From an uncultured delta proteobacterium (GTDB lineage Bacteria > Desulfobacterota > RBG-13-43-22): 64,000 bases of DNA. Positions 6,021 to 36,964 of this stretch are shown piece by piece. The position numbers and the translations under genes are program-made. The notes under the pieces were generated by a model. That model was not told the DNA's origin. It saw only the letters and a list, made by a program, of their open reading frames with translations, and ran no database searches. Location: contig CAWJJC010000010.1 of NCBI GenBank assembly GCA_963843145.1, positions 207,823 to 271,822 of the forward strand. Direction: 5' to 3'. Each line of letters starts with the position of its first letter. The first letter of the stretch is position 1.

Positions 6021-7734
6021 TTATTTCACCGGGGAGGCATCCCACTCCCCTTCCCGTCGCAATTGTTCCACGATGGGCTGGGCCAGCTTCTGCAGGGCCA
6101 GCTTGTCCACTTTGGTGCTGCGGGTGATTGGGAATTCCCGGCCGGCGGGCCAGAGCTCCACATGCTGGGGCCGCTTGTAGGAGGCGATTTCCCGGCAGTG
6201 GGCCAGCACTTCCTCGGCGGTCAGCGCCGCCCCCGGGAGGAGGCGCACAAAGGCAAAGATCCCCTCGTCAAAAAGCCGATGTTCCAGACCCACCACTTCG
6301 GCCACTTCCACCCCGGGCAGCCGGCCGATGTGGGCTTCGACCTCATCCGGAAAAACGTTATAACCTTTTTGTTTGATCACGAACTTCCGCCTCCCGGCCA
6401 GAAAGAGGGCCCGGTAGGTTCCCAGGTTTTTGAAGGAGCCGAGGTCCCCGGTATAGAGGATCCCTTCTCTGGAAATGGTTTTGGCCGTTTCCTGAGGCTG
6501 GTTGTAGTAGCCGAGGAACACCAGGGGTGGATGGTAGCAGATCTCCCCGATCTCCCCTTCAGGGAGTTCCTCCCCGGCGCTGCCGTCCGGGTTCATGGGC
6601 CTGCGGACCGTAACGGCCGCCAGGTCGGGGAAGGCCCGCCCCACCTGGCCGACCATTTCCTCCGGCGGAATATCCTTCGGGGTAAAGGTGGCGAAGCCGG
6701 CATTTTCGGTCATGCCGATACCGGTGCCGAAATGGGGAGCCATGCCGGAGAGTTTTTTCAGGAAGGCCAGATCCACCGCCGAACCGGCATAGGCCACGAA
6801 GCGCAGGCTGCTCAGATCGAGACCGGGATAGTCGGGATGATTCCAGAGCATCCGGTACTGGGTGGGGATCTGCCCGAGGACATTGACCCGGTGCTTGGGA
6901 ATGGCCTCCAGGGTCATCTTGACATCAAAGATGCGCAACAGGACGGTCGTGCCCCCCAGGGCCATGGTGGTCATGAAACATTCGGTCAGACAGCCCACGT
7001 GGCTGGGAGGCAGGTTGATCAGGATACGCAGGTCGCTGCCCAGTCCCACGTCCAATCCCCGGGCCAGGATCTCGTTCTGGGTGATGATGTTCTCGTGGCA
7101 GAGCAGGGCCGGTTTGGGATCGCCGGTTGTCCCGGTGGTATAGATGATCAAGGCCGGGGTCCGGGGTTTGACCTGTCGATAAGCCTTTTCCAGCCTCCGG
7201 GTGAAGAGGTCCTTGATTTTCAAAGCCAGGAGCTTCTTCTTGTCCATCATCCCGGTGATCGACCAGGCCCCGTCCAGGAGTTCCCCGGGCTTCGGGTCGG
7301 CCGTAAACTGCACCAGAAATTCGACGGAAGGGACAGTGCGCTTTTACCGCTTGGCCGACCTGGCGGAAATCTCGGACCGGGGTCTGTCCCAGGAAGAAAA
7401 AGACCTTGGGGTTGATTTTGTTCAGGTCCCGGACGACTTCTTCATCCTTGAGGCGCAGGTCCAGCGGGGAAACAATGGCTCCGATCTTAAAACAGGCGTA
7501 CATCAGCATCAGGTGTTCCGGAATCAAAACCAGTTGGGTGGCCACGCGGTCTCCCTCCCGGACACCCATATCCAGCAGACGCAGGGCGAAGAAGTCGATC
7601 AGGGAAAGAAACCGTTTATAGGATACGGTTTTGCCGTCCTCGTGCTGGATCATGGCCGGTTTATCCGGAAAGGTTTTCGCCCAGTGCTCGATATAGGAAT
7701 TGACCAAGGGTAATCTAACAAAAGGGGTGGTCAT
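6021..7734 (-). CDS. Acyl-CoA synthetase (AMP-forming), frameshifted near 7330
   Basis: N-part in ORF 6925..7734, C-part in ORF 6021..7313 with YTTGTTGDPK, GMTENAG, YTGDLG, GYNVFPDEVE, TKVDK. Removing one base in the CCCTT run restores HCPSVEFLVQF, so likely a sequencing error. Confidence 0.88.
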
Positions 7735-7816
7735 GTTTCCTCCTTATATTAACGGTCACGAAATAATATTGACAGGATTCCTTAACGCCGCCAGTCACAA
7801 CGTAAGACAAAAGACG

Positions 7817-8027
7817 ATCTCTCGCAGAGCGCACAGGGATCGCAGAGAATATATAATTTTTGATTGCCGCTGAGAGGCCGGCAATCAAAAAAAATCTCCC
7901 GCTCCGCGAATGAGACCCCGCCGGAGGCGTGAGTTTTTTTGAAAAATCGGCGTCTCAGCGATTTTTCAAAGACTAAAATCATCTTTCTCTGCGCCCTCTG
8001 AGAACTCGAGCGAAGCGGGCGAGAGAT
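7817..8027. repeat. Multi-hairpin palindromic element (MITE/REP-like or structured RNA)
   Basis: Outer IR ATCTCTCGC/GCGAGAGAT; second IR CGCAGAGAA/TTCTCTGCG; perfect 13-bp hairpin 7857-7891 and perfect 12-bp hairpin 7938-7970. Confidence 0.75.
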
Positions 8028-8121
8028 AAAAAGAACCCTCCCTGTAAATACAAGTCGAAAAACGACTTTCTGCGAGGCGGGACTCTCCCGCCACTTGAAG
8101 TAAATTCAAGTGGTCCCACCC

Positions 8122-9021
8122 TCACCCACTTTCGGTGAGTCCGTCATTTTTTATGAAGGCGTAGCCTTTGCTGATGGCCGGCTGCCCTTCCGCGTTCTGG
8201 ACGATAAAATACAGATCGGTCCCTTCGGGCCGGGGGAGTTTTCCGACTAGACCAATCCGAATGGAGGTCCCGGGCAGAACCATACCGCTGAACCGGCCGG
8301 AGAAGGCCCCGAGTCTCCGGGGATCCTTCCCGGCTTCCCGATTCAGGATCTCCCGGGCGGCCAGGGCCAATGTGGCGGTTCCCTGGAGGATGATCCCGGG
8401 CAGCCCGACCCGGCGGGCAAAGCTTCGCGAGGTATGGATGGGGAAGAAGATATTGGTACAGCCGTCGTAGAGGAAGGGCCGCAGGGTGTCGATGGGCAGG
8501 GTCGTTTCCCAGAGGGCTCGGTCCGCCTCCGGGACGGATGGGATCGCCGGGAGGGCCTCCTGCCCCTGCCCGTCCCCGGTGCAGGACACTCCCCGCATCA
8601 AGGCCCCGGTATGCTCGGTGAAAACCCGTTGGCCCTTCTGGTCCGAAGCCTCAAAGCAGATCACTACCCGGGTCCCGGCCCGATGGGGCAGGATGGCGGC
8701 GATCTTCCCCTGAACCGTCAAGTGATCTCCGGGCCGCGCGGGGCGATGGAAGACCAGGTGCTCGGTATGGTGGACCTGGGTGAAGAGGACCTCCGGTGGA
8801 AACCGCTCGCTGTCGATAAATTCCCAGATCCGCTCCAGGATGGGCCAGGTAACAGCCACGCTGAAAAGCGGTGGGGCGACAATCCCCGGATCGCGCTCGT
8901 CGTCAAAATACCAGGGATTGTCATCCCCCACGGCGGCAGCGTAATTCATCGTCTCCCGCCAGGTCACTTCCCGGTCATAGGGTTTCAGCATCGTTCCGAC
9001 CAGGTCTGAACTCAGGTTCAT
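8122..9021 (-). CDS. Double hot-dog MaoC/enoyl-CoA hydratase 2-like protein
   Basis: YAAAVGDDNPWYFDD, APPLF, H.EHLVFHRP, FPIH, GLPGIILQG, RFSGMVLPG. Confidence 0.82.
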   Translation of the reverse strand: MNLSSDLVGTMLKPYDREVTWRETMNYAAAVGDDNPWYFDDERDPGIVAPPLFSVAVTWPILERIWEFIDSERFPPEVLFTQVHHTEHLVFHRPARPGDHLTVQGKIAAILPHRAGTRVVICFEASDQKGQRVFTEHTGALMRGVSCTGDGQGQEALPAIPSVPEADRALWETTLPIDTLRPFLYDGCTNIFFPIHTSRSFARRVGLPGIILQGTATLALAAREILNREAGKDPRRLGAFSGRFSGMVLPGTSIRIGLVGKLPRPEGTDLYFIVQNAEGQPAISKGYAFIKNDGLTESG

Positions 9022-34264: not shown

Positions 34265-35101
34265 TCAGGAATTAACCACAGCGTAGGCATTGCTCAGCAC
34301 GACCGCCCGGTCGGTGCGGGCCTGGATGAGATAACGACCTCCGGATTCCCGCCAGCCCTCGGTGGTGAGGGTCTCGCCCGGATAGACCGCGCCGGAGAAG
34401 CGGGCCTTGAATTCTTTAAAGCGCGTCACCTGCCCACCGCAGAGGCCGTGGAGGATGGCCCGGGTGGCGTAGCCGTAGGTGCAGAGTCCATGGAGAATGG
34501 GCCGGTCGAAGCCGCCGCGCCGGGCGAACTCCGGGTCCAGGTGTAGGGGGTTCAGGTCCCCGCTGAGGCGGTAGAGGGCGGCCTGGTTCTCGGGAATGGG
34601 GTAAGTGACGCTGAAATCGGGCGCGACGCCCTCGGGAGGGTTCAAAGAAACGGCTTTAGGCCCCGGGTCGCCTCCAAAGCCCCCGGCGCCCACATGAAAG
34701 GCGATATGCTCCACATCAAAGAGAGGGTCCCCTTTTTCGGTCCGGCCCGCGGTCAGAAAACGAATGACCGCGGCTTTGCCTTTGTCATAGACGTCGGCTA
34801 TTCGGCTGGCGGCCATGATTCTCCCCTCGGGGGGGATCGGCCGATACAGGCGAATTCCCTGCTCGCCGTGCAGAAACCGAAAGCCCTCCACCTGCCGGCT
34901 CAACTCGATGAGGAGTTTTCCGGAGGCCTTGGTCGCGAAGCTGGGAAAGACCTGCAGGCCTCCCGGGGTATTTTCGTAAAGGAAAGGAAGCTCGTCCACC
35001 TGGGCGCCGATGCCCAAGGCGTAGAGGACCACATCTTTCCAGGTATAGGTGAACACAAATTCCTGCGGCTCCCGGGACACTGTTTTCCAATCGATGGTCA
35101 T
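34265..35101 (-). CDS. (R)-specific enoyl-CoA hydratase 2 (MaoC double hot-dog)
   Basis: LYALGIG, LHGEQ, YDKGK, GGFGG, canonical ALYRLSGDLNPLH, ILHGLCTYG. Confidence 0.9.
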   Translation of the reverse strand: MTIDWKTVSREPQEFVFTYTWKDVVLYALGIGAQVDELPFLYENTPGGLQVFPSFATKASGKLLIELSRQVEGFRFLHGEQGIRLYRPIPPEGRIMAASRIADVYDKGKAAVIRFLTAGRTEKGDPLFDVEHIAFHVGAGGFGGDPGPKAVSLNPPEGVAPDFSVTYPIPENQAALYRLSGDLNPLHLDPEFARRGGFDRPILHGLCTYGYATRAILHGLCGGQVTRFKEFKARFSGAVYPGETLTTEGWRESGGRYLIQARTDRAVVLSNAYAVVNS

Positions 35102-35119
35102 TGGTTTCTCCTTATTAAG

Positions 35120-35157
35120 TCCTCATGCCCGGGGCGGGAACCCCGAAGCATGAATAT
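35120..35157 (-). repeat. Dispersed ~38-bp repeat, copy 2
   Basis: Reverse complement ATATTCATGCTTCGGGGTTCCCGCCCCGGGCATGAGG matches 13611-13648. Confidence 0.7.
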
Positions 35158-35334
35158 AATGCAATAAAGGCAGTAAATCAGCTCGTCCTTCCGGCCCCAT
35201 CTTAAAAGCGGGTAAACTCCATCCGGAATCTTGGGCAGCGAAGATCTTGGGTCACCCGGATGCCGGATCAGGTCCGGCATGACGGCAACGGCAACTACCT
35301 GAAAACGGTGATCGGTTTTATTCTCGTATTGGAT

Positions 35335-36105
35335 TTACTCCCCGGTGAATACCGGTTTCCGCTTTTCCAGGAAGGCCTGGAATCCTTCCGTCCGATCTTT
35401 GGTTTCCCGCACGGCGGCGGAACCCTCGGCCTCGGCCCGCAGCCCGGCATCGATCCCCTCATACGTCCCCTCGGTTAAGGCCTTCAGGACCCAGCTCACG
35501 GCAATGGGCGGCCGTTCCGCCAGTTTCCGGGCCAGTTCCAGGGTGTCTTCCATCAGTTTTCCGGGCTCAGCCAGCCGGTTGACCAGCCCGATCTCCAGGG
35601 CCTCCCGGGGGCCGATCCGTTGGCTGAAGAGAATCATCTCCAAGGCCCTGGCCCGACCCACCAGACGGGGCAGGCGCTGGGTCCCGCCCCAGCCGGGGAT
35701 AATCCCCAGGTTGAGCTCGGTCAGGCCGACGGAGGCCTTGGGGTCATCCACCATGATCCGGAAATGACAGGTCAGGGCCAGCTCCAACCCGCCGCCCAGC
35801 GCGTGGCCGTTCAAGGCGGCAATCGTCGGCTTGGGAAAACGATCCAGCCGCCTCCAGAGTTCCCGACCCAGGGGGCTGGTCTTCGGGGCGTTGGCCGCAT
35901 CCGAGACATCGAACCCCGAAGAAAAAATCTTTTCGCCGGCCCCGGTCAGGATCACCACCCGTGTCTGCCGGTCGTTTTCCAGGTAGTCCAATCGTTCCTT
36001 CAACTCCTCCATGGCCGCCAGGTTCCAGGCATTGGCCGGAGGGTGGTCGATGGTCAGGATACTGATGTGTTCTTTCTGCTCCAGAAGGATATGCTGAAAG
36101 GACAT
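35335..36105 (-). CDS. Enoyl-CoA hydratase/isomerase (crotonase)
   Basis: [53 protein letters not shown]. Confidence 0.92.
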
Positions 36106-36149
36106 GGATCACTCCTTTTCGGTGAATGAATCAAAGGGATATTCTTAAA

Positions 36150-36964
<815 letters not shown>

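What the first reader, a model, noticed from the sequence alone, without database searches (positions are those of the whole stretch)
7817..8027. Nested palindromic element with two perfect hairpins whose loops are complementary (kissing-loop candidate)
Seen: hairpin A TTTTTGATTGCCG-[CTGAGAGGC]-CGGCAATCAAAAA (7857-7891) and hairpin B TTTGAAAAATCG-[GCGTCTCAG]-CGATTTTTCAAA (7938-7970). The stems differ in sequence but each pairs perfectly. The two 9-nt loops are reverse-complementary at 8 of 9 positions. A weaker hairpin lies between them (CTCCCGCTCCG...CGGAGGCGTGAG), and both sit inside outer IRs. Inference: conserved loops on unrelated perfect stems point to selection on structure. This could be a loop-loop RNA pseudoknot, or two inverted hairpin recognition sites for an ssDNA recombinase/transposase acting on a non-autonomous element. 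It lies between the hot-dog and CoA-ligase genes and matches no Rfam family I recognise.
Basis: partly seen in the sequence, partly recalled or inferred. Interest (0 to 1): 0.72.

Follow-up and report, generated by a model that had tools for sequence, protein, structure and literature searches.

The report
Composite miniature transposon with paired hairpins
The two hairpins are the core of a small gene-less jumping element, present at about 54 places in this genome, that has landed between two genes of an operon; the vehicle is an ordinary kind of miniature transposon, but its conserved hairpins with matching loops remain unexplained.

Summary
Both perfect hairpins, the 8-of-9 loop complementarity and the outer inverted repeats are in the sequence as described.

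It is one copy of a dispersed repeat, found at 54 loci in this genome. Window 7747-8053 is a roughly 325-nt miniature transposon (MITE). Its ends match an IS630-family insertion sequence found intact in a congener, and complete copies are flanked by TA. In three congeners this site is empty and the two flanking genes abut.

A covariance model finds it in 21 of 21 genomes of this bacterial family, and 83 of 99 sampled elements lack the IS630 ends. The same arm units and hairpin types bracket a GxxExxY (PD-(D/E)XK-fold) gene at some loci, so the core is probably a gene-less miniature of that cassette.

Stems A and B stay 96-98% Watson-Crick through many compensatory changes. Loop complementarity is conserved, and two loop types switch together. 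Only 2-4 independent switches exist, so a kissing interaction is plausible but unproven.

I found no link to HUH/RAYT genes and no Rfam match. The scan had met gene-less heptamer-arm cassettes on other DNA before.

The parts
7747..7748 (.). TA abutting the left end (target dinucleotide of the IS630-type shell)
   Evidence: Complete copies start TA|TTAAC and end GTTAA|TA. Seven of 11 complete copies have TA at both outer ends. The orthologous empty sites in G001 and G002 carry a TA after CCTCCT.
7749..7776 (+). Left terminal inverted repeat of the MITE shell (TTAACGGTCACGAAATAATATTGACAGG)
   Evidence: It differs at 2 positions from the family consensus. It resembles the ends of the IS630-family element of G002 and of its relatives in many phyla.
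7777..7816 (+). Left inner part of the shell, between the terminal repeat and the core
   Evidence: Conserved in the 15 aligned copies. Absent from core copies that lack the shell.
7817..8027 (.). Palindromic core: outer arms, hairpin A, central hairpin C, hairpin B
   Evidence: Inverted repeats. RNAalifold consensus. Covariance model R1 matches window 7839-7995 at 179.4 bits.
7841..7849 (+). P1, 5' strand (CGCAGAGAA); pairs with 7985-7993
   Evidence: 88.8% of cells paired, and 8 of 9 pairs show changes on both sides. It is the innermost of the tandem 8-9-nt arm units.
7857..7891 (+). Hairpin A (13-bp perfect stem, loop CTGAGAGGC at 7870-7878)
   Evidence: 96.0% paired across 150 rows; 12 of 13 pairs changed on both sides.
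7893..7937 (+). Central GC-rich hairpin C, flanked by an A-run and a T-run; it stands where the ORF lies in full-length cassettes
   Evidence: 72-81% paired. The pattern scan found only a small terminator-like site, on the minus strand at 7910-7898.
7938..7970 (+). Hairpin B (12-bp perfect stem, loop GCGTCTCAG at 7950-7958)
   Evidence: 98.6% paired; 11 of 12 pairs changed on both sides.
7985..7993 (+). P1, 3' strand (TTCTCTGCG)
8028..8053 (+). Right inner part of the shell and the first 13 nt of the right terminal repeat; the last ~17 nt (TTATGAGACTGTTAATA in other copies) are missing
   Evidence: Alignment of 15 copies. The nhmmer match ends at model position 310 of 325.
8052..8146 (+). A second, unrelated gene-less multi-hairpin repeat. 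It lacks its first ~10 nt and an internal piece, and ends ...GAGTCCGTCA.
   Evidence: 35 BLAST matches in the genome, the best 26 aligned. Also present in G001-G003. It supplies the last 8 codons and the stop codon of the upstream gene.
8122..9021 (-). MaoC-like dehydratase (hot-dog) gene. Its 3' end now lies in the second repeat.
   Evidence: Pfam PF01575 and PF13452. Homology to relatives stops near 8147.
6925..7734 (-). 5' part of the AMP-binding (CoA-ligase) gene. Start codon and ribosome-binding site lie directly beside the element. The reading frame is broken near 7333.
   Evidence: Pfam PF00501. One extra base relative to G002.

Best explanation
Window 7747-8053 is one copy of a non-autonomous transposon built in two layers.

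The outer layer is an IS630-type MITE shell: roughly 28-30-nt terminal inverted repeats flanked by TA. It is presumably moved in trans, by cut-and-paste into TA, by an IS630-family transposase such as the one found intact in congener G002.

It is a separately evolving palindromic module. Arms made of tandem 8-9-nt units form stem P1. Inside lie hairpin A (loop TGAGRGG), a GC-rich central hairpin C and hairpin B (loop CCTCTCA). This module is abundant throughout the bacterial family, mostly without the IS630 shell. It is most likely the ORF-less miniature of a cassette that carries a GxxExxY (TIGR04256, PD-(D/E)XK-fold) gene between hairpins A and B.

Shown: copy number, ends, empty sites, the structure kept by compensatory changes, and the link to the ORF-bearing copies.

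Inferred: the mobilising enzyme; that the single-stranded fold (RNA or DNA) is what is being preserved; and that the copy, sitting inside an operon transcript, acts there only as a bulky stem-loop (a processing, pausing or termination site).
For: Copy number and extent. nhmmer finds 88 hits at 54 loci in the genome, and 52 of the 54 are not spanned by an ORF of 120 aa or more.

Ends. The terminal repeats are visible in 15 aligned copies. Seven of 11 complete copies have TA at both ends; the other 4 differ by one base at one end.

Empty sites. G002 lacks the copy present at G000 C20:453084-453409, and the lengths fit a 2-bp duplication. At the window's own site G001, G002 and G003 lack the whole 7747-8146 block. 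There the two genes abut, and in G003 they overlap as ATGA.

Partner. G002 holds two identical 1.1-kb elements with TA|TTAAC...GTTAA|TA ends and a 342-aa ORF. The ORF scores 125.7 bits on DDE_3 and 236.7 bits on NF033545, IS630 family transposase, cut-off 100. In 65 of 80 relatives of that IS from many phyla the same end motif is found.

Core. Model R1 matches in 21 of 21 family genomes. Sixteen of 99 sampled elements have IS630-like ends within 170 nt. The whole structure is 90.2% paired against 69.1% in shuffles (0 of 500 reach it) and 44-54% when slid.

ORF link. G000 C27:220190-220582 encodes a GxxExxY protein (147.5 bits, cut-off 35) between arms of CGCAAAG-type units and perfect hairpins. 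A decayed GxxExxY ORF sits between a full and a half core on C19. Nine of 25 family GxxExxY genes have at least 2 such arm units on both sides. Several have a TGAGRGG-loop hairpin upstream or a CCTCTCA-loop hairpin downstream.
Against: No intact IS630 partner lies in the window's own assembly. There is only a 30%-identical HTH piece and a DDE_3 fragment; the genome is 97.9% complete.

This copy lacks its right end, so its second TA cannot be seen. Only one clean empty site supports the 2-bp duplication.

How the 83 of 99 shell-less cores move is unknown. Their empty sites could not be resolved, because the intergenic DNA of the compared species does not align.

The ORF link is partial. Sixteen of 25 family GxxExxY genes lack these arm units. 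Only 10 of 25 have perfect hairpins within 150 nt on both sides. Among 80 metagenomic GxxExxY genes only 3 have such hairpins on both sides.

No transposition, transcript end or cleavage has been observed.
Confidence: 0.8

Rival explanations
1. The core is above all a structured RNA: a four-way junction whose A and B loops form a 6-9-bp kissing helix. It would serve the cassette's own life cycle or the host, for example by clamping the ends of the GxxExxY transcript or by controlling processing or translation.
For: Loop complementarity is kept across the family: 84.3% of cells paired against 78.9% in shuffles (0 of 500) and 34-56% when slid, with a covariation score of 0.187 against 0.119.

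Own partners pair at 6.43 of 7 positions against 5.82 for non-partners (0 of 10,000 permutations reach it).

Two loop types (TGAGRGG/CCTCTCA and GGAGATAC/GYATCTCC) switch together: TA 54 / GC 20 at one position and GC 43 / TA 20 at another.

At one position G-T occurs 32 times and A-C twice on the strand that is the sense strand of the ORF in full-length copies.

Contigs of two metatranscriptome libraries cover the core, for example 7804-8005 with 12 differences; this is weak, because DNA can be present in such libraries.
Against: On a tree of the elements the type switch amounts to 2 and 4 changes, and the independent-pairs test has no power.

G-U pairs make up only about 1% of stems A and B, 26 of about 2,440 cells. 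That fits palindromes kept at the DNA level on both strands, not a one-strand RNA.

Elements lie in either orientation relative to co-directional neighbours, 13 same and 12 opposite.

The window's own subfamily has a G-G mismatch in the middle of the loop helix (10 of 86).

Five copies have loop A replaced by a GC-rich insert.

In ORF-bearing loci, loop complementarity is clear in only 3-4 of 10.
Confidence: 0.3
2. The hairpins are recognition or cleavage sites for a structure-specific DNA enzyme acting on extruded hairpins or single-stranded DNA. The candidate is the GxxExxY PD-(D/E)XK-fold protein, or failing that an HUH/RAYT transposase. The loops match because each strand must present the same loop motif at its own 5'-side hairpin.
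For: The stems are almost purely Watson-Crick, 95.9% and 98.1% paired with about 1% G-T, as expected if both strands must fold.

Every element matches the model on both strands.

The only gene found inside related full-length copies has a nuclease fold.

There is no orientation preference.
Against: No activity is known for GxxExxY proteins. A search for GxxExxY, PDDEXK_3, PF13366 and TIGR04256 found 5 papers holding any of these terms, none in title or abstract.

Only 3 of 80 metagenomic GxxExxY genes have hairpins on both sides.

None of the 11 Y1-transposase genes is flanked by A/B-type hairpins.

The 32:2 excess of G-T over A-C in the loops is not predicted by this model.
Confidence: 0.2
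3. The stems stay perfect without any selection. Short-loop quasi-palindromes are corrected by intrastrand template switching during replication, so a change in one arm is copied into the other. The element is then pure selfish DNA, and its loops are conserved for unrelated reasons.
For: The short-loop hairpins A and B are far cleaner (96-98% paired) than the long-range P1 (87-89%) or C (72-81%). G-T intermediates are almost absent. Internal deletions in partial copies are centred on the dyad axis, as seen for unstable palindromes.
Against: This does not explain why the loops of two different hairpins stay complementary and switch type together. It also does not explain why the upper stem and loop sequences are conserved across genera while the lower stems vary. 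Quasi-palindrome correction is named here from general knowledge and was not tested.
Confidence: 0.15

Closest known systems
RUP of Streptococcus pneumoniae and other IS630/Tc1-mariner-derived MITEs
   Same: A small gene-less element with terminal inverted repeats like those of an IS630-family IS, inserted at TA, with many intergenic copies. This is what PMC2229807 says of RUP and IS630-Spn1 (passages read). The TA duplication by an IS630-family transposase was shown in vitro for ISY100 (PMC2170065, passages read).
   Different: This element is three times longer (325 against 107 bp). Its interior is a separately evolving structured module that is more widespread than the shell. No partner IS lies in the same assembly.
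GxxExxY (TIGR04256 / PF13366 PDDEXK_3) gene cassettes and S23p-type 23S rRNA intervening sequences (Coxiella, Leptospira)
   Same: Inverted arms made of short tandem units enclose a small ORF, and gene-less versions are dispersed between genes. A GxxExxY ORF with the same type of arms and hairpins lies at G000 C27:220190-220582. S23p genes of this genome each sit between unit-repeat arms. For the Coxiella IVS paper (PMC4990558) I saw only the search listing and the start of the abstract.
   Different: The window copy has no ORF and is not in rRNA. None of the 37 S23p loci I looked at has CGCAGAG-type arms. The A/B hairpin pair is not a general trait of GxxExxY genes (3 of 80). RNase III processing is known for IVSs and is only assumed here.
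REP / REPIN elements with RAYT transposases
   Same: Dispersed extragenic palindromes that may be transcribed. Pairs in inverted orientation can fold into larger structures (PMC3733652, abstract read).
   Different: No GTAG or CGTC tag lies beside the stems (read). The two hairpins are not inverted copies of each other. No Y1 transposase is flanked by them.
Kissing-loop junction RNAs such as the purine riboswitch aptamer
   Same: A closing stem and hairpins whose terminal loops are complementary would give a compact junction. This comparison is from recall; for the adenine-riboswitch paper (PMC3683926) I saw only the search listing.
   Different: There is no sequence or Rfam similarity. This is a four-way, not a three-way, junction. 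Both DNA strands fold alike, there are hundreds of copies, and no ligand or regulated gene is known.

Membership tests
IS630-derived MITE | Terminal inverted repeats resembling those of an IS630-family insertion sequence | tested here: met
   MITE ends: TTAACGGTCTCAAAATAATATTGAC and TTAACAGTCTCATAATTGTATTTAC. G002 IS ends: TTAACTGTCTCATAATAGTATTGAC and TTAACCGTCTCATAATAGTATGGAC. The motif is found in 65 of 80 related IS loci.
IS630-derived MITE | Insertion into TA with duplication of the TA | tested here: met
   Seven of 11 complete copies have TA at both ends. One filled/empty pair fits a 2-bp gain. The window copy shows only its left TA because its right end is cut off.
IS630-derived MITE | Small, without a transposase gene, many copies | tested here: met
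   Consensus of 325 nt, no ORF of 60 aa or more that is conserved, 54 loci.
IS630-derived MITE | Cognate autonomous IS in the same genome | tested here: not met
   tblastn finds only a 30%-identical HTH piece. DDE_3 matches only a fragment at C28:185295-185743. The partner exists in congener G002.
IS630 family transposase (the partner in G002) | Score above the curated cut-off of NF033545, with a DDE_3 domain | tested here: met
   236.7 bits against a cut-off of 100. PF13358 scores 125.7 bits.
Gene-less miniature of a GxxExxY cassette | The same arm units and hairpin types bracket a GxxExxY ORF in related copies | tested here: met
   G000 C27 locus. Nine of 25 family loci have at least 2 arm units on both sides. 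A-type hairpins lie upstream or B-type hairpins downstream in L295, L296, L303, L306 and L318. Partial: 16 of 25 lack the arms.
S23p-type intervening-sequence cassette | A PF05635 ORF between arms of the same unit sequence | tested here: not met
   There are 17 PF05635 matches in G000. In the 8 G000 loci and 29 family loci I inspected, each has its own units and none has CGCAGAG-type units.
REP/REPIN mobilised by RAYT | GTAG or CGTC tag beside the palindrome, and a RAYT gene flanked by the repeats | tested here: not met
   No tag beside stems A or B. None of the 11 Y1_Tnp genes has A/B-type hairpins within -900/+1300 nt.
IS200/IS605-type miniature (PATE) | Subterminal hairpins at both ends on one strand, with no terminal inverted repeats and no target duplication | tested here: not met
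   The hairpins lie 110 and 83 nt inside the ends, and the element has terminal inverted repeats and flanking TA.
Any Rfam RNA family | Score at or above the family's gathering threshold | tested here: not met
   Eight matches at E up to 10, all far below threshold; the best is 19.9 bits against 60.
Intrinsic (bidirectional) terminator | GC-rich stem followed directly by a U-run on both strands | tested here: inconclusive
   Hairpin C is flanked by A8 and T7. The pattern scan reports only a 5-bp site on the minus strand, no more than the shuffles give (1 found, mean 0.9).

The most novel reading that the evidence does not exclude
Hairpins A and B form a conserved loop-loop (kissing) contact that closes a four-way junction. 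This contact would be a working part of a so far undescribed mobile cassette family built around the uncharacterised GxxExxY nuclease-fold protein. It could act in the cassette's RNA (end-clamping, processing, translation control) or as the single-stranded DNA substrate of that protein. IS630-type shells would then have captured and spread this module secondarily.
Probability: 0.3. Interest if true: 0.7.

Novelty: new variant of a known kind. Interest (0 to 1): 0.5.

Why it matters
The vehicle is ordinary: a MITE mobilised by an IS630-family transposase. Three aspects go beyond that.

First, it shows one selfish element carrying another. An IS630 shell has picked up the miniature of a different, poorly understood cassette.

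Second, that cassette family (GxxExxY, PD-(D/E)XK fold) has no known function. The core described here offers a concrete, testable nucleic-acid partner: two hairpins with complementary loops, kept by many compensatory changes in hundreds of copies.

Third, the insertion sits exactly in the junction of two translationally coupled genes of a fatty-acid/CoA operon. It rewrote the last residues of the upstream protein, and the downstream gene is frameshifted. This is a natural experiment on what such elements do to operons.

Tried and rejected
1. Chance palindrome or single copy: rejected (54 loci).

2. Loop complementarity as a by-product of one long palindrome: rejected. Stems A and B are unrelated, and each covaries on its own. 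In the window copy alone, however, the RNA minimum-energy fold does use a long-range loopA-loopB helix, while DNA parameters give the cloverleaf.

3. Phylogenetically corrected test of loop covariation: only 1-3 independent pairs on supported branches, so no power.

4. Generalising the hairpin pair to all GxxExxY genes: not supported. Three of 80 metagenomic loci have hairpins on both sides. In the bacterial family, 10 of 25 have hairpins on both sides, with mean best loop pairing of 3.3 against 2.79 for non-partners.

5. S23p as the cargo gene: none of 37 loci inspected has matching arms.

6. HUH/RAYT link: none.

7. Outward promoter in the ends: no sigma-70-like site found.

8. Empty sites of shell-less cores: flanks were found in G016 and G017, but the intergenic DNA does not align, so insertion site and duplication are unresolved.

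9. RNA evidence: only contigs of two metatranscriptome libraries, which cannot show strand, ends or true transcription. The DNA runs held small shares only, and no habitat is claimed.

10. A first metagenome scan with a 17-sequence alignment was not accepted as conserved enough. It was repeated with 7 sequences.

Full report
**1. The observation**

- Hairpin A is 7857-7891, with a 13-bp perfect stem and loop CTGAGAGGC.
- Hairpin B is 7938-7970, with a 12-bp perfect stem and loop GCGTCTCAG.
- The loops are complementary at 8 of 9 positions.
- A weaker GC-rich hairpin lies between them.
- The outer inverted repeats are 7817-7825/8019-8027 and 7827-7849/7985-8007.

The intergenic stretch folds better than all 100 shuffles on either strand (z -3.87 and -5.45). 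No Rfam family comes near its threshold: 8 matches at E up to 10, the best 19.9 bits against a gathering score of 60.

**2. It is a dispersed repeat, and longer than reported**

BLAST and nhmmer against the window's own genome (5.35 Mb, 32 contigs) give 88 hits at 54 loci. The consensus is 325 nt, and the window copy spans 7747-8053.

Fifty-two of the 54 loci are not spanned by an ORF of 120 aa or more. The flanking-gene arrangement of the 54 loci is:

| Arrangement | Loci |
|---|---|
| Between divergent ORFs | 11 |
| Between convergent ORFs | 16 |
| Co-directional, element on the same strand | 13 |
| Co-directional, element on the opposite strand | 12 |
| No ORF found on one side | 2 |

Partial copies often lack a central piece centred on the dyad axis.

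**3. The outer layer is an IS630-type MITE**

Fifteen aligned copies show terminal inverted repeats: TATTAACGGTCTCAAAATAATATTGACAGG at the left end and CCGTGTAAATACAATTATGAGACTGTTAATA at the right. Of 11 copies with both ends, 7 have TA at both outer ends. The other 4 differ by one base at one end.

In congener G002 two identical 1.1-kb elements carry closely similar ends, again flanked by TA. They encode a 342-aa protein with a DDE_3 domain (125.7 bits) that scores 236.7 bits on NCBIfam NF033545, IS630 family transposase, cut-off 100.

Relatives of this IS occur in MAGs labelled Nitrospirota, delta proteobacterium, Acidobacteriota and others. In 65 of the 80 loci kept, the end motif TTAACnGTCTCAwAAT is found, preceded by TA at the expected ends.

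The window's own assembly has no intact copy, only a 30%-identical HTH piece and a DDE_3 fragment.

IS630-family elements insert into TA and duplicate it. This was shown in vitro for ISY100 (PMC2170065). The pneumococcal RUP element is the classic MITE ascribed to such a transposase (PMC2229807). For both papers I read passages.

**4. The insertion is recent and sits in an operon junction**

The copy at G000 C20:453084-453409 is absent from the orthologous site of G002. The distances between the conserved flanks agree if the element plus one TA is removed.

At the window's own site, G001, G002 and G003 lack the whole block 7747-8146. There the MaoC-like dehydratase gene (window 8122-9021, minus strand) and the AMP-binding CoA-ligase gene (start at 7734, minus strand) abut. 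In G003 they overlap as ATGA, with the ribosome-binding site inside the upstream gene.

In the window the block consists of two elements:
- the MITE, whose right end repeat is cut off after 13 nt;
- a second, unrelated multi-hairpin repeat (8052-8146), which has 35 BLAST matches in this genome (best 26 aligned) and lacks its own first ~10 nt.

The second repeat now supplies the last eight codons and the stop of the dehydratase gene...FIKKEEI* in G003 against ...FIKNDGLTESG* here.

The downstream CoA-ligase gene has one extra base near 7333 relative to G002, which breaks its frame. I cannot tell whether that is real or an assembly error.

**5.

Several copies in the genome have the core (model positions about 72-285, window 7817-8027) but no IS630 ends.

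RNAalifold on 21 copies predicts a closing stem P1 and three local hairpins A, C and B. I built a covariance model of 156 positions and 44 base pairs. It finds full-length matches in 21 of 21 genomes of this bacterial family, four genera. That call lists 150 matches and says 484 more are not listed, with both strands counted. Examples are 56 in G000, 93 in G020 and 76 in G013.

A BLAST search with a whole element found it in 20 of 20 other genomes of the family and in 0 of 20 genomes of 20 other families of the phylum.

In 100 fetched loci there are 99 distinct elements, and every one also matches on its reverse strand. Only 16 of the 99 have an IS630-like end within 170 nt.

In the shell-less copies the arms are tandem 8-9-nt units (CACCGCAGAG ACGCAGAG AACGCAGAGAA on one side, TTCTCTGCGTT CTTTGCGT CTTTGCGGTGAA on the other). 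Further inverted repeats lie outside them.

**6. Structure is conserved**

These counts are on the 150-row alignment, which is 99 elements plus 51 reverse-strand readings and so is not independent. The whole structure is 90.2% paired against 69.1% in shuffles (0 of 500 reach it) and 44-54% when partners are slid.

| Helix | Cells paired | Pairs changed on both sides |
|---|---|---|
| Stem A | 96.0% | 12 of 13 |
| Stem B | 98.6% | 11 of 12 |
| P1 | 88.8% | 8 of 9 |
| C | 72-81% | 9 of 10 |

On the 99 best-strand rows G-T pairs make up only about 1% of stems A and B. These stems are Watson-Crick palindromes. That fits folding on both strands, or templated correction of short quasi-palindromes, better than a one-strand RNA.

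**7. The loops**

There are two loop types:
- Type I: TGAGRGG in hairpin A with CCTCTCA in hairpin B.
- Type II: GGAGATAC in hairpin A with GYATCTCC in hairpin B.

In 86 usable elements (13 of 99 were set aside for odd loops, listed), the flanking positions switch together: TA 54 / GC 20 at one position and GC 43 / TA 20 at another. GG occurs 10 times, in the window's own subfamily. Own partners pair at 6.43 of 7 positions against 5.82 for non-partners, and 0 of 10,000 permutations reach that.

The tool's count for the loop helix alone is 84.3% paired against 78.9% in shuffles (0 of 500) and 34-56% when slid. The covariation score is 0.187 against 0.119.

At one position G-T occurs 32 times and A-C twice.

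Against this, on a tree built without the loop columns the type switch needs only 2 and 4 changes. The independent-pairs test has 1-3 pairs on supported branches, so it has no power. Five copies have loop A replaced by a GC-rich insert. I therefore rate the kissing-loop idea as plausible (about 0.3), not shown.

**8. A full-length form**

Earlier notes of this scan described gene-less palindromes with heptamer arms whose full forms carry an S23p or a GxxExxY gene. I used them as leads.

S23p. The genome has 17 PF05635 matches, each between its own unit-repeat arms. None of the 8 G000 loci and 29 family loci I inspected has CGCAGAG-type units.

GxxExxY. G000 C27:220190-220582 encodes a TIGR04256 GxxExxY / PF13366 protein (147.5 bits, cut-off 35). 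It lies between the arm TTTACCGCAAAGACGCAAAGGACGCGAAGAGG and its complement on the other side. Perfect hairpins stand next to the ORF, and the downstream one matches the hairpin-A part of the model (19 bits, E 2e-4).

On C19 a decayed GxxExxY ORF lies between a complete core and a half core.

The family search found 34 GxxExxY matches in 15 of 21 genomes, and I inspected 25:
- Nine have at least 2 such arm units on both sides.
- L295, L296, L303 and L306 have a TGAGRGG-like hairpin upstream (TGAAAGA in L296).
- L295, L296 and L318 have a CCTCTCA hairpin downstream.

The model's forward strand is thus the sense strand of the ORF, and hairpin C stands where the ORF was.

The link is partial:
- Sixteen of the 25 lack the arms.
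- With a nearest-hairpin rule, 10 of 25 have hairpins on both sides. Their best loop pairings are 1, 1, 2, 2, 3, 3, 4, 5, 5 and 7, mean 3.3 against 2.79 for non-partners.
- Of 80 metagenomic GxxExxY genes, only 3 have perfect hairpins on both sides.

Searching GxxExxY, PDDEXK_3, PF13366 and TIGR04256 found 5 papers holding any of these terms, none in title or abstract.

**9. Other checks**

- None of the 11 Y1-transposase (HUH) genes is flanked by A/B-type hairpins. One lies 131 nt from an internally deleted copy.
- No sigma-70-like promoter is found in 7600-8250. Only one small terminator-like site is found, no more than the shuffles give.
- Contigs of two metatranscriptome libraries cover the core, and some RNA-library contigs join 7710/7738 to 8147, which is the empty-site form of relatives. 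Such contigs show neither strand nor ends and may stem from DNA.
- Searching 'miniature inverted-repeat' together with kissing and loop-loop terms gave no paper that combines them among the 8 listed of 70.

**10. Verdict**

The feature is real. It is the core of a composite gene-less mobile element:
- The shell is an IS630-type MITE, a known kind of which this is a new member.
- The core is an ORF-less miniature of a GxxExxY-type cassette. That kind is barely described in print, although this scan has met it on other DNA.

The stems are clearly maintained. The loop-loop contact is a reasonable but unproven reading.

Its most likely effect at this site is passive: a large stem-loop wedged into a formerly coupled gene pair.

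Noticed in passing
window 8052-8146: A second gene-less repeat family. The full form is about 190 nt with several hairpins, running CCTCGCAAAAAGTC ... GAGTCCGTCA. It has 35 BLAST matches in the genome (best 26 aligned), and its left flank usually ends TGATAA or TGATGA. Here it is truncated, abuts the truncated MITE end, and provides the stop codon of the upstream gene.
   Followed up: partly
window about 7333 (gene 6021-7734, minus strand): The AMP-binding CoA-ligase gene downstream of the insertion has one extra base relative to G002 and is split into two overlapping ORFs (6925-7734 and 6021-7313). This is either a pseudogene or an assembly error.
   Followed up: partly
G000 C27:34107-36439: One element copy is split at model position 80/81 by a roughly 2-kb insertion that holds a 451-aa ORF (34902-36254, minus strand). 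The ORF was not identified.
   Followed up: no
G000 C27:5944-6333 and C28:776437-776825: Two copies carry an extra ~66 nt exactly at the centre of the palindrome (model position 168/169).
   Followed up: no
G000 C28:632916-633240, C17:203198-203531, C5:151532-151648; L173, L156: In five copies the loop of hairpin A is replaced by a GC-rich palindromic insert (for example CCCCGCCTAGGCGGGG), so these copies lack the loop that would pair with loop B.
   Followed up: no
G000 C22:499720-499787: A minimal element of about 66 nt that consists only of the two IS630-type end repeats flanked by TA. It is either the empty shell or a complete internal deletion.
   Followed up: no
G000 C19:61000-84000 and C3:1700-38100: Clusters of element fragments lie together with three S23p (PF05635) genes and a decayed GxxExxY gene, which suggests islands of nested mobile cassettes.
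   Followed up: partly
G000 C5:156103-156268, C28:610348-610513; G005 (about 50 end-motif matches): Other MITE families share the same IS630-type end motif but have different interiors: 166-nt elements in G000 and roughly 270-nt elements in G005. The shell therefore carries interchangeable cargo.
   Followed up: no
L319 (G012 C165:21262-21600) and L305 (G001 C31:42680-42997): GxxExxY genes of other subfamilies are flanked by perfect hairpins whose loops are again complementary, with different sequences: CCAGAAG with CTTCTGG, and AAAAGCA with GTCTTTTT.
   Followed up: partly
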